A DNA stretch of 64,000 bases from Escherichia coli (GTDB taxonomy: Bacteria > Pseudomonadota > Gammaproteobacteria > Enterobacterales > Enterobacteriaceae). Shown one piece after another: positions 59,801 through 62,800 of this stretch. Position 1 is the first letter of the stretch. Each line of letters begins with the position of its first letter. The position numbers were made by a program. The stretch is taken from NCBI RefSeq assembly GCF_017348835.2, contig NZ_CP071375.1. One strand, 5' to 3'.

Positions 59801-62800
59801 ATCAATACGCACATGGATCAGCGCCGGACCAGGGCGATTGATGATTTCCTGCAATGCAGCCTGCGGATCGGCTTCGTTATTCAAATCACAGGTTTCAAGG
59901 CCGAATCCGGCGGCAATCTGCATAAAGTTGATTTTGCCCGGATAGGTGGCGGCAAAAACGCCCTGCTTGTAGAACAGACTCTGTTGCTGATGCACCAGCC
60001 CCAGCGCTTCGTTGTTCATCAGGATAATTTTGACATTCAGCTGATTTTCACTGGCGGTCGCCATCTCCTGAATATTCATCATCAGGCTGCCGTCGCCGGA
60101 GAAGCACAACACTTTGCGATCCGGGTTCGCCAGCGCTGCGCCAATCGCCGCAGGCAGGCCAAAACCCATCGTGCCCAACCCACCGGAGGTCAGCCACTGG
60201 CGTGGGCGATTGAGCGGATAAGCTTGCGCGGTCCACATCTGATGCTGACCAACGTCGGTGGTGATAATCGCATTGTCATCGACACAGGCGGCAACGGCGT
60301 TGATCAGGCCGTAATGGCTTAATGGATCGCACGCTTTCGGGATTGGACACGGGAATTCGCGCTGCAAATCCGCTACCAACTGGTGCCACTCTGCACGCGG
60401 TTGCGCTTCCACCAGTGGGATCAACTGCGCCAGTACATCATCAACATCCGCCTGAATCGCCACATGCGGCTGCTTGATTTTACCCAGCTCTGCGCGGTCG
60501 ATATCGACATGAATAATTTTGGCATTCGGACAGAACTGCTCGGTTTTGCCAATCGCCCGGTCATCAAAACGCGCACCGAGCACTATCAACAAATCCGCCT
60601 CCTGCAAAATATAGTTGGTGCTGCGCACACCGTGCATCCCCAGCATACCCAGCGACAACGGATGCGCTTTTGGCAACATGCCCAGCGCCATTAAAGTCAT
60701 GGTGGTAGGCAGTTGCGCTTTCTCCGCCAGTTCACGCACCCGTGCGGGCGCATTGATCACACCGCCGCCCAGATAAAGCACCGGGCGTTTGGCAGCGTTA
60801 ATCATCGCCGCTGCGTCACGAATGCTTTCTTCGCTAAAGGCGGGTGCGGCGGCTTTTTCTGCCACCGCGGGCTGTGCTTCAATCTCAAAAACCGCCGTTT
60901 GCACATCCTTAGGAATGTCTATCCACACCGGGCCTGGGCGGCCTGATTGCGCAATGCGGAAGGCATCGCTCATGACCTGCGGGAGTTCTTCGATATGTCT
61001 GACCAGATAGTTGTGTTTGGTGATGGGGATAGAGATGCCGTAGGTGTCGACTTCCTGGAAGGCGTCGGTGCCGATCATCGAGGCGGGAACCTGACCAGTG
61101 ATGCAAATCAGCGGGATGGAGTCCAGCCGCGCATCGGCAATGGCGGTCACCAGGTTAGTCGCACCCGGTCCGCTACAGGCCATACAGACCGCCGGTTTAC
61201 CGTCGGTGCGCGCCATTCCCTGAGCGATAAAGCCCGCGCCCTGTTCATGACGGGCCAGAATATGGCGGATTTGCGTGCTTTGGCTTAAGGCATCGTAAAC
61301 AGGCAGGATAGAACCGCCCGGAATGCCCGTCACAATCTTAATGCCCTGCTGTTCCAGGAAATGAACGATAAATTCTGCGCCGGTAAAGCGCTTACGCATC
61401 GATGTTGTGCCCGAACTTGCCATGCTCCAGTCCTTTTCTTCTGGGCCGACTTTCCGGGAGGTGCTTAAACGAAAAACCCCGCCCGGTTTGCGCCGGCGGG
61501 GTTTTGGAATCGTGTGTTGTTCCAGTCCCTACGGCGCATTGCCGACGACCACCACCACACGCACGACGACCACTGCGGCGGATGGCGCAGTTGGTAGTAG
61601 TTTTGCGTTGAACATGGAAGTAGTCATTGGGGACCTTGTTGGTTTTGTGTTTAACAATATTTATACAAGCACAGCTTTACAGGGGAGACAATGGAAAATT
61701 TTTCAGCAAGGGAAAATTGAGGGGTTGATCACGTTTTGTACTGAATTGCAGATAACAAAAAACCCCGCCGGAGCGAGGTTTCGTCAGCCGCCTGCGGCTG
61801 GTAACCGCAAAGCACACTGTATTATGTCAACACTGAAAGTATACGTGTTCCGCGCAGAACGCGCAATTTCGGCACGAATTTTGACGTATTTAGTGCATAG
61901 TTGAGTATCGATCACAGTATGCGTTTTGTCCAAATATTACTGTTTATTTATACAGTAAACTTCTATAATATCACTGTACGCAATGTGTTATGCGGGGGCC
62001 GCATCGTTACCCGGCGCACTAAGTCCTGGCTGAAACGGGTGGTGCCGTCAGCGCCTTAACCCCGCGTGAGCACACTGTGTTATGTCAACAAGCACAACGT
62101 TTCTCCTTGAGATACCGCGTGCACAACAGCTGGCAACAGGCAGCGGAAAGGTACGTCAGCTGGCAGTGCTCCTGAACCACAGGAGACGCGTATGAGCCTG
62201 GTGGATATCGCCATTCTTATCCTCAAACTCATTGTTGCAGCACTGCAACTACTTGATGCTGTTCTGAAATACCTGAAGTAATTCAGATTCAAGTCGCACC
62301 AAAGGGGAGCGGGTAACCGCTCCCCTTTTATATTTAGCGTGCGGGTTGGTGTCGGATGCGATGCTGACGCATCTTATCCGCCCTACCATCCCTCCCGGCA
62401 ACATTTATTGCCGCTTTTGTTTACATATTCTGCCGCTAAACAATTCCCCATTCCTGGCGTATATCTGGCTAACATTCATCAATGTGATAGATTCCTCTCC
62501 CGCATTTATGGGAATGCGTAGTGACTTATTCTAATTATTTTTATAAAAGCATCCGTGATAATGAAAAGGCATAGAAACGTCAATTTGTTATTGATGTTGG
62601 TATTACTCGTGGCCGTCGGTCAGATGGCGCAAACCATTTATATTCCAGCTATTGCCGATATGGCGCGCGATCTCAACGTCCGTGAAGGGGCGGTGCAGAG
62701 CGTAATGGGCGCTTATCTGCTGACTTACGGTGTCTCACAGCTGTTTTATGGCCCGATTTCCGACCGTGTCGGTCGCCGACCGGTGATCCTCGTCGGAATG

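What the first reader, a model, noticed from the sequence alone, without database searches (positions are those of the whole stretch)
61757..62281. tisB/IstR type I toxin-antitoxin locus, with the sRNA-mRNA pairing site visible as a 20-bp direct repeat
tisB (29 aa) is preceded by a LexA box (61939-61954) and by a divergently oriented sRNA-like unit with a terminator (about 61757-61832). cacactgt(a/g)ttatgtcaaca occurs at 61813-61832, within the minus-strand sRNA, and at 62071-62090, within the plus-strand tisAB leader. That gives about 20 nt of antisense complementarity between the two transcripts. The system is known; this is a consistency check that also fixes the approximate IstR-1 coordinates.
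Basis: partly seen in the sequence, partly recalled or inferred. Interest (0 to 1): 0.3.

Follow-up and report, generated by a model that had tools for sequence, protein, structure and literature searches.

The report
Known tisB/IstR-1 toxin-antitoxin locus
This is the well-studied E. coli tisB/istR-1 toxin-antitoxin locus, and the short DNA repeat is the place where the antitoxin RNA base-pairs with the toxin messenger RNA, so the finding is correct but ordinary.

Summary
The repeat is 22 nt rather than 20 (61811-61832 and 62069-62090, 21/22 identical), and none is expected by chance in the 64-kb window. The region is the E. coli ilvB-ivbL / istR / tisAB / ysdE / emrD interval, with 11 SNPs against K-12 over 1.4 kb.

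- **Family matches.** Rfam istR (RF01400) matches 61757-61886(-) at 149.5 bits. The 29-aa ORF at 62192-62281 passes both NCBIfam TisB equivalogs and Pfam PF13939.
- **Transferred K-12 annotation.** IstR-1 is 61757-61829 and IstR-2 is 61757-61896.
- **Corrections.** The LexA palindrome is 61938-61957, with core CTGT-N8-ACAG at 61940-61955.
- **Conservation.** In 45 Enterobacteriaceae loci from about 16 genera, the sRNA tail, the target, the LexA box and tisB keep the same layout. Conserved pairing runs exactly from G61831 to U61810 against 62089-62068, which is 22 bp. Two positions change in a compensatory way. Pairing is not kept at 61832-61833. This supports the published ~75-nt IstR-1 with its 5' end at 61831.
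- **Mechanism, from the literature.** IstR-1 occludes the ribosome standby site of the +42 tisB mRNA, and RNase III cleavage gives the inert +106 species.

The system is already known and the interest is low.

The parts
61757..61831 (-). IstR-1 antitoxin sRNA, about 75 nt. The 5' tail (nt 1-12) is predicted single-stranded and is followed by two stem-loops, the second being the terminator.
   Evidence: The K-12 annotation transfers to 61757-61829, a 73-nt form. Northern blots give ~75 nt (PMC2515195). Conserved pairing starts exactly at G61831 in 45 loci. The TATACT -10 at 61843-61838 places a purine start 7 nt downstream (sequence; hexamer as in PMC11264685). Folding gives P(unpaired) 0.97 for nt 1-12.
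61757..61896 (-). IstR-2, the 140-nt LexA-controlled longer transcript that contains all of IstR-1.
   Evidence: K-12 annotation transferred. Rfam RF01400 matches 61757-61886 at 149.5 bits. The promoter-like TGGACA/GATACT at 61932-61904 has the same hexamers as PMC11264685 Table 1.
61810..61831 (-). Antisense (target-recognition) segment of IstR-1, nt 1-22. DNA repeat copy A is 61811-61832.
61938..61957 (.). LexA operator TACTGTTTATTTATACAGTA. It overlaps the -35/spacer region of the tisAB promoter and lies upstream of the IstR-2 promoter.
   Evidence: It is the only match in 64 kb, with 0.04 expected. A CTG[TA]-N8-[TA]CAG box occurs within 200 nt of the sRNA tail in 43 of 45 related loci, and at the corresponding offset (about +92 to +105) in 42 of them; in L047 the only match is at +123.
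61964..61969 (+). tisAB -10 hexamer TATAAT. The inferred transcription start is about 61976-61977.
   Evidence: The hexamer is named in PMC11264685 Table 1. The start is inferred from three agreeing constraints: -10 spacing, the 359-nt RNA length (PMC2577331) ending in the U-run at about 62335, and +106 (PMC6690012) falling at about 62082 inside the duplex.
62068..62089 (+). IstR-1 target, which is the single-stranded ribosome standby site in the tisAB 5' UTR (about +92 to +113). DNA repeat copy B is 62069-62090.
   Evidence: The standby function comes from PMC6690012.
62082..62195 (+). tisA, a 37-codon ORF reported as untranslated. Its ATG lies inside the IstR-1 target.
   Evidence: PMC2826370. 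The ATG is ACG in 35 of 45 related loci and the reading frame is not kept.
62192..62281 (+). tisB, encoding the 29-aa membrane-depolarising toxin (N2S variant). The SD sequence AGGAGA lies just upstream at about 62182-62187.
   Evidence: NCBIfam NF011340 scores 69.9 bits (cut-off 53), TIGR04459 61.5 bits (cut-off 38), and Pfam PF13939 37.6 bits (cut-off 25). RefSeq annotates the identical protein WP_000060506.1 as TisB.
62301..62335 (+). tisAB intrinsic terminator: a 12-bp stem, a 4-nt loop and a U-rich tail.
   Evidence: (I3).

Best explanation
The region is the chromosomal tisB/istR-1 type I toxin-antitoxin locus of E. coli.

- **Induction.** LexA bound at 61938-61957 keeps the tisAB promoter off. 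DNA damage removes LexA, and a ~359-nt tisAB mRNA is made from about 61977.
- **Activation.** The primary transcript is not translated. Removing its first 41 nt yields the +42 mRNA, in which 62068-62089 is single-stranded and acts as a standby site for 30S subunits. These subunits then reach the structured tisB RBS about 100 nt downstream.
- **Repression.** IstR-1 is made constitutively from the opposite strand (61831 to 61757). Its free 5' tail pairs with that site over 21-22 bp. This excludes the ribosome and triggers RNase III cleavage, which gives the inert +106 mRNA.
- **The repeat.** The DNA direct repeat is the genomic footprint of this trans-antisense pairing between divergently transcribed genes.

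Shown here: the identity of all parts, the pairing itself, and its evolutionary conservation with compensatory changes. Taken from the literature: LexA control, +42 processing, the standby mechanism, RNase III cleavage and toxicity.
For: - **Locus identity.** The window differs from K-12 MG1655 by 11 SNPs and is colinear with it. It is 100% identical to strain PE164 over 751 nt.
- **Family matches.** Rfam istR scores 149.5 bits. TisB passes the equivalog models.
- **Repeat.** It is unique and not expected by chance.
- **Target specificity.** The best target of the IstR-1 tail in the whole window, apart from its own gene's complement, is at about 62067, the start of the 62068-62089 duplex. It scores -37.0 kcal/mol against -23.1 for the next best.
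- **Competition with internal structure.** In cofolding, IstR-1 pairs from nt 1 to 62089, gaining -24 kcal/mol with the +1 or +42 mRNA. With +106 it gains only -10.5 kcal/mol, at an unrelated site.
- **Accessibility.** IstR-1 nt 1-12 are predicted unpaired (0.97). The tisB SD/AUG is predicted paired, with P(unpaired) 0.16-0.20.
- **Conservation.** 45 loci from about 16 Enterobacteriaceae genera keep the tail/target duplex at the same offset, together with a TisB ORF and, in all but three, a LexA box at the matching offset.
- **Covariation.** On 31 distinct sequences the register is specific: 88% of cells are paired, against 22-46% when the partner is slid. Pair 9/48 is G-C in 20 and A-U in 10. 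Pair 14/43 is A-U in 25 and G-C in 6. Three further positions alternate C-G with U-G. Pairing stops at the IstR-1 +1 nucleotide.
- **Literature.** 21-nt complementarity, RNase III cleavage, the standby site and the +42/+106 species are documented in PMC4147584, PMC6690012, PMC2577331, PMC2826370 and PMC11264685.
Against: - Nothing in the sequence contradicts the explanation.
- Simple partition-function folding did not reproduce a general opening of the target on 5' truncation across 42 related leaders. Mean P(unpaired) was 0.41 versus 0.42, p = 0.2. In this window it rose from 0.39 to 0.51. The +1/+42 switch therefore rests on published experiments and not on my calculations.
- The RefSeq IstR-1 5' end (61829) would shorten the duplex to 19-20 bp.
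- One clade (Kosakonia, Phytobacter and Siccibacter, among others) carries an A.C mismatch at pair 7/50.
- The covariation counts are per sequence and not per evolutionary event. Concerted change of two short DNA repeats cannot be formally separated from RNA-level selection. However, the excess of G.U-compatible differences over mismatches (40 cells against 12) favours RNA pairing.
Confidence: 0.97

Rival explanations
1. The repeat is a functionless remnant of a local duplication, or a chance match, and the two transcripts do not pair through it.
For: Other short direct repeats in the same 1.2 kb (12-16 nt, 83-94% identical) are at chance level (D1 and D4-D7).
Against: No match is expected by chance. 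The two copies are kept in register in about 16 genera with compensatory and wobble-compatible changes, and conservation stops exactly at the sRNA 5' end. Published genetics and biochemistry also argue against it (PMC4147584, PMC6690012).
Confidence: 0.01
2. The two copies are DNA-level binding sites for one protein, such as a regulator acting on both divergent genes, rather than an RNA-RNA pairing site.
For: Identical DNA words 258 bp apart could in principle bind the same factor. The repeat contains TTGACA on the minus strand.
Against: Differences between the two copies are mostly transitions that keep G.U pairs in the RNA duplex (40 wobble cells against 12 mismatch cells), which a DNA site would not favour. 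Both copies lie inside transcribed regions and not in promoters. No -10 element follows the TTGACA of copy B at a usable spacing (sequence). The known regulator, LexA, has its own separate box.
Confidence: 0.01
3. IstR-2, which contains the whole 22-nt repeat plus one extra pair at 61832:62090, is the functional antitoxin instead of IstR-1.
For: IstR-2 includes the full repeat. Cofolding gives it a slightly larger net gain, -28.8 kcal/mol. It is co-induced with tisAB by SOS (PMC2826370).
Against: In IstR-2 the antisense segment is predicted to be folded into an internal hairpin, with P(unpaired) 0.39 against 0.65 overall and 0.97 for the seed in IstR-1. Pairing at the IstR-2-only positions 61832/61833 is not conserved, at 12/31 and 8/31 sequences. 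The literature reports that IstR-2 does not repress tisB (PMC11264685, PMC2826370).
Confidence: 0.03

Closest known systems
tisB/istR-1 of E. coli K-12 MG1655 (b4618/b4616; Vogel et al. 2004; Darfeuille et al. 2007)
   Same: It sits in the same chromosomal position (ivbL-istR-tisAB-ysdE-emrD) with the same promoters, LexA box, IstR-1/IstR-2, target site, tisA, tisB and terminators. There are only 5 SNPs between 61757 and 62335.
   Different: TisB is N2S (62196 G for A), the variant found in about 85% of E. coli (PMC11264685). IstR-1 nt 44 is G instead of A (61788), turning a U-A pair of stem-loop 1 into U.G. There is one SNP in the IstR-2 promoter spacer (61919), one synonymous change in tisB (62251) and one in the terminator loop (62314).
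Other divergently encoded E. coli type I systems: shoB-ohsC, zorO-orzO, dinQ-agrB
   Same: In each, a small hydrophobic toxin has a long 5' UTR, and a divergently transcribed sRNA carries a short (about 18-30 nt) stretch complementary to that UTR, far from the RBS. dinQ is also LexA-controlled (PMC4147584, PMC3567139).
   Different: The toxin and sRNA families are unrelated. Only tisB/istR-1 has a demonstrated S1-dependent standby site (PMC6690012).
hok/sok and ibs/sib (cis-antisense type I systems)
   Same: An RNA antitoxin blocks toxin translation by base pairing, with RNase III cleavage of the duplex.
   Different: In those systems the antitoxin is encoded directly opposite its target, so the pairing region appears once in the DNA. 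Here the genes do not overlap, which is why the pairing site appears as a direct repeat.

Membership tests
tisB/istR-1 type I toxin-antitoxin system | A TisB toxin ORF: about 29 aa, hydrophobic, belonging to the TisB family. | tested here: met
   NF011340 scores 69.9 bits (cut-off 53), TIGR04459 61.5 (cut-off 38) and PF13939 37.6 (cut-off 25).
tisB/istR-1 type I toxin-antitoxin system | An IstR sRNA gene (Rfam RF01400) with an intrinsic terminator, divergent from tisAB. | tested here: met
   149.5 bits against a gathering score of 45, covering the full 130-position model at 61757-61886(-). The terminator was found.
tisB/istR-1 type I toxin-antitoxin system | About 21 nt of complementarity between the IstR-1 5' tail and the tisAB 5' UTR, about 100 nt upstream of the tisB RBS. 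| tested here: met
   A 21-bp duplex (22 with a terminal U.G) joins 61831-61810 to 62089-62068, at -33.5/-34.8 kcal/mol. The target lies 103 nt before the tisB AUG. It is conserved, with compensatory changes.
tisB/istR-1 type I toxin-antitoxin system | A LexA operator at the tisAB promoter (SOS control). | tested here: met
   A perfect TACTGT-N8-ACAGTA lies at 61938-61957, 7 nt upstream of the TATAAT hexamer. A box at the matching offset is present in 42 of 45 related loci. LexA binding itself was not testable.
tisB/istR-1 type I toxin-antitoxin system | Synteny and orthology with the characterised K-12 locus. | tested here: met
   The window is colinear with NC_000913.3 3852300-3854500 and differs by 11 SNPs.
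tisB/istR-1 type I toxin-antitoxin system | +42 processing, standby-dependent translation, and RNase III cleavage to +106. | not testable with these tools
   This is known from PMC6690012 and PMC4147584. The in-silico test of opening on truncation was inconclusive.
tisB/istR-1 type I toxin-antitoxin system | Toxicity of the peptide and its neutralisation by the sRNA. | not testable with these tools
   The N2S variant encoded here was shown to be toxic on overproduction (PMC11264685).

The most novel reading that the evidence does not exclude
The most novel reading left open comes from the cross-genus comparison.

- **Duplex length.** The selected duplex is 22 bp, one pair longer than the published 21 nt. 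The added closing pair (IstR nt 22 with 62068) is kept as U.G or C-G in all 31 distinct sequences.
- **tisA.** The base of the tisA ATG that varies among genera is one half of a covarying pair with IstR-1 nt 7. The codon is ACG in 35 of 45 loci and the frame is not kept. On this reading tisA is a by-product of the pairing site in Escherichia, Salmonella and some Citrobacter, and not a gene.

Both points are small refinements of a known system.
Probability: 0.6. Interest if true: 0.12.

Novelty: already known. Interest (0 to 1): 0.08.

Why it matters
It matters mainly as a calibration point. A reader working from raw sequence alone correctly recognised a trans-antisense type I toxin-antitoxin pair from a short direct repeat between divergent transcription units. 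That signature could be used to look for unannotated systems of the same layout. For this locus, the check fixes the coordinates of every part in the window. It also shows that the pairing is under selection across about 16 enterobacterial genera. No new biology follows.

Tried and rejected
- **Whole-sRNA duplex energies.** Full-length duplexfold of the sRNA against the leader ignores intramolecular structure. It gives large energies even for shuffled leaders (mean -53.6, minimum -73.4 kcal/mol, against -78.0 observed). I replaced it with a tail-only scan and with cofolding.
- **Extended pairing.** Cofolding predicts 32-38 intermolecular pairs reaching 62044-62068. I do not accept these, because pairing is not conserved beyond IstR nt 22 and they would require opening IstR stem-loop 1.
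- **Target opening on 5' truncation.** The test on 42 related leaders was inconclusive: 0.41 versus 0.42, p = 0.2, with the transcription start sites assumed. The first attempt timed out.
- **Consensus fold of the leaders.** RNAalifold on 43 leaders did not recover the helix between the 5' end and the standby site, because the 5' ends align poorly.
- **Primary papers.** Vogel 2004 and Darfeuille 2007 are not held in the library. IstR-1 length and pairing length are cited through PMC2515195 and PMC4147584.
- **Other repeats.** The 14-nt repeat D5 (61761-61774 / 62058-62071) and the 16-nt inverted repeat between the ilvB attenuator and the IstR terminator (I1) were treated as chance or generic terminator similarity. 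PMC11264685 also notes stray matches to the istR 3' end.
- **Non-enterobacterial hits.** Six of the 51 genome hits, from haloarchaea and a Holophagaceae MAG, have no tail, target or LexA box and were dropped as pattern coincidences.

Full report
**Observation.** The repeat finder extends the match to 22 nt, 61811-61832 and 62069-62090, with 21 of 22 positions identical (family D2). A search for the 22-mer allowing 3 mismatches finds only these two sites in 64 kb. None was found in 100 dinucleotide-preserving shuffles. The 29-codon ORF is at 62192-62281. A terminator-like hairpin with a U-run lies on the minus strand at 61782-61759, with the run ending at 61757. It is the only match to TACTGT-N8-ACAGTA in the window, with 0.04 expected.

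**Identity of the locus.** A 751-nt query across the region matches 5424 of 5426 complete E. coli genomes. It is 100% identical to strain PE164, and the feature under the match is annotated tisB. Aligned to K-12 MG1655 (NC_000913.3), window 61400-62800 is colinear with 11 SNPs. Transferring the K-12 annotation gives these coordinates:

| Feature | Window coordinates |
|---|---|
| ivbL | 61529-61627(-) |
| IstR-1 | 61757-61829(-) |
| IstR-2 | 61757-61896(-) |
| tisB | 62192-62281(+) |
| ysdE | 62405-62479(-) |
| emrD | from 62561 |

Rfam's istR model (RF01400) matches 61757-61886(-) over its full length at 149.5 bits, E = 1.7e-32. The peptide MSLVDIAILILKLIVAALQLLDAVLKYLK passes both NCBIfam TisB equivalogs and Pfam PF13939 above their curated cut-offs. 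It differs from K-12 TisB by N2S. That variant is the majority form in E. coli and is toxic on overproduction (PMC11264685).

**Promoters.**
- **IstR-2.** The scan finds TGGACA-17-GATACT at 61932-61904 on the minus strand, which fits the IstR-2 5' end at 61896.
- **IstR-1.** The hexamers TTGCGC and TATACT (61843-61838) are present.
- **tisAB.** The hexamer TATAAT (61964-61969) is present.
- All of these are the hexamers tabulated in PMC11264685.

I infer the tisAB start at about 61976-61977 from three agreeing constraints. The first is the spacing from the -10 hexamer. The second is the published 359-nt transcript length (PMC2577331), which then ends in the U-run after the 62301-62328 hairpin. 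The third is the published +106 RNase III product (PMC6690012), which then starts at about 62082, inside the duplex.

**The pairing.** IstR is transcribed from the minus strand and tisAB from the plus strand. A direct repeat in the DNA therefore means antisense complementarity between the RNAs.
- IstR-1 nt 1-21 (G61831 to U61811) pair with 62089-62069. There is one G.U pair (U61821 with G62079), and the energy is -33.5 kcal/mol.
- Adding U61810 with G62068 gives 22 bp and -34.8 kcal/mol.
- Scanning both strands of the whole window with the 24-nt tail, the best site other than the gene's own complement is at about 62067, where the 62068-62089 duplex begins. It scores -37.0 kcal/mol against -23.1 for the next best.
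- When intramolecular structure is allowed to compete, IstR-1 still pairs from its first nucleotide to 62089. The net gain is -24 kcal/mol with the +1 or +42 mRNA. With the +106 mRNA it gains only -10.5 kcal/mol, at an unrelated place.
- Alone, IstR-1 folds into a free 12-nt 5' tail (P unpaired 0.97) and two stem-loops.
- In IstR-2 the same segment is drawn into an internal hairpin, with P(unpaired) 0.39. This agrees with reports that IstR-2 does not repress tisB (PMC11264685, PMC2826370).
- The tisB SD/AUG is predicted paired in all three mRNA forms, at 0.16-0.20. The standby model requires this.

**Independent test by comparison.** One scan of species-representative genomes used a pattern from the IstR stem-loop and terminator, leaving the tail unconstrained. 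It returned 51 loci.
- Forty-seven are from Enterobacteriaceae, from about 16 genera including Citrobacter, Enterobacter, Kosakonia, Lelliottia, Leclercia, Phytobacter, Pluralibacter, Siccibacter, Trabulsiella, Superficieibacter, Pseudenterobacter, Huaxiibacter, Salmonella and Escherichia. The rest, from haloarchaea and a Holophagaceae MAG, are pattern coincidences.
- In every enterobacterial locus with enough flank (44 loci, making 45 with the window; L006 and L025 were cut too short), the tail's best target lies 210-232 nt away on the opposite strand. Duplex energies are -33 to -44 kcal/mol.
- A CTG[TA]-N8-[TA]CAG box lies at a matching position (about +92 to +105) in 42 of the 45. Two loci have no match and one has its only match at +123.
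- A TisB-like ORF follows the target in all but one locus, where my filter missed it.

On the 31 distinct tail/target sequences the proposed register is specific. It gives 88% paired cells, against 22-46% when the partner is slid by 1-3 columns. Two pairs show changes on both sides: G-C in 20 versus A-U in 10, and A-U in 25 versus G-C in 6. Three further pairs alternate C-G with U-G. One clade carries an A.C mismatch.

Pairing is kept in essentially all sequences from IstR nt 1 to nt 22. It collapses at the two positions upstream (61832 and 61833, paired in 12/31 and 8/31) and at the two positions after nt 22. The conservation boundary therefore coincides with G61831. That is the 5' end expected for the ~75-nt IstR-1 seen on Northern blots (PMC2515195) and for a purine start 7 nt after TATACT. 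The RefSeq end at 61829 is two bases shorter. Published reviews state 21 nt of complementarity (PMC4147584).

**Mechanism.** Shown here are the parts, their arrangement, the duplex, and selection on the duplex. The following steps come from the literature.
- LexA represses tisAB (PMC2826370, PMC11264685).
- The primary transcript is translationally inert, and removal of 41 nt gives the active +42 mRNA.
- The single-stranded region that IstR-1 binds is an S1-dependent ribosome standby site.
- IstR-1 binding blocks 30S loading, and RNase III cleavage gives the inert +106 mRNA (PMC6690012, PMC4147584).
- TisB depolarises the inner membrane and promotes persisters after ciprofloxacin (PMC2826370).

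My attempt to reproduce the +1/+42 switch by partition-function folding was weak. In this window the target's mean P(unpaired) rises from 0.39 to 0.51. Across 42 related leaders it does not change (0.41 versus 0.42, p = 0.2). This test assumes the transcription start sites, so I count it as inconclusive.

**Rivals.**
- **Chance or a relic duplication.** The statistics and the conserved, compensated register exclude this.
- **A DNA-level protein-binding role for the two copies.** This is unlikely, because the copies differ mainly by transitions that keep G.U pairs, and both lie inside transcripts.
- **IstR-2 as the real antitoxin.** Predicted occlusion of its antisense segment, non-conservation of its extra pairs, and published genetics all argue against this.

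**Comparison and novelty.** This is the K-12 tisB/istR-1 system itself, and all testable defining features are met. The differences from K-12 within the locus are:

| Position | Change and effect |
|---|---|
| 62196 | TisB N2S |
| 61788 | IstR-1 nt 44, a structure-preserving U-A to U.G change |
| 61919 | SNP in the IstR-2 promoter spacer |
| 62251 | Synonymous change in tisB |
| 62314 | SNP in the terminator loop |

[quoted passage not shown] The system is already known and the interest is low. The only small additions are the 22nd conserved pair and the observation that the tisA start codon is not conserved outside a few genera.

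Noticed in passing
window 61747-62392; L003 3095-3210: About 1274 of 5424 complete E. coli genomes lack istR-tisAB. In strain FDAARGOS_1251, the ~646 nt carrying istR, tisAB and the REP element are replaced by ~116 nt of unrelated sequence between ivbL and ysdE. Presence/absence variation is already reported in PMC11264685. I did not investigate the replacing segment.
   Followed up: partly
window 62082-62195 (tisA): The tisA ATG lies inside the IstR-1 target. It is ACG in 35 of 45 related loci, the downstream frame and length are not kept, and the variable base covaries with IstR nt 7. 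tisA therefore looks like a by-product of the pairing site and not a conserved gene. PMC11264685 left open why it is conserved within E. coli.
   Followed up: partly
window about 62092-62125: A 34-nt segment of the tisAB leader immediately 3' of the IstR target is present in Escherichia, Salmonella diarizonae and two Citrobacter loci. It is absent from most other genera, where tisB starts about 88 nt after the target instead of about 122 nt.
   Followed up: no
window 61981-61992: A third, partial copy of the repeat (CAATGTGTTATG) sits at about +5 to +16 of the tisAB primary transcript, within the 41 nt removed by processing (D1). In the MFE fold of the +1 RNA this 5' segment pairs with 62060-62080, covering part of the standby site. 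This fits the published inactivity of the +1 form. The segment is not conserved in sequence across genera.
   Followed up: partly
window 61788: This SNP against K-12 (C versus T) is IstR-1 nt 44. It turns the U16-A44 pair of stem-loop 1 into U16.G44, so the structure is preserved.
   Followed up: yes
window 62001-62020: The 20-mer GCATCGTTACCCGGCGCACT in the tisAB 5' region is the sequence reported as antisense to the 3' end of uxaA mRNA (PMC2577331). It is present unchanged here.
   Followed up: no
window about 62340-62390: A REP-type palindrome lies between the tisAB terminator and ysdE. It gives a weak sub-threshold hit to Rfam naRNA4, 22 bits against a gathering score of 59.5. PMC2577331 also notes a REP element here.
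   Followed up: no
window 61529-61627 and 61446-61514: The ivbL leader peptide carries L6F relative to K-12 (SNP at 61612). The ilvB attenuator hairpin at about 61475-61505 shares 16 nt (94%) with the IstR terminator (I1) and produces weak sub-threshold Rfam hits to P6 and STnc310. This is generic terminator similarity.
   Followed up: no
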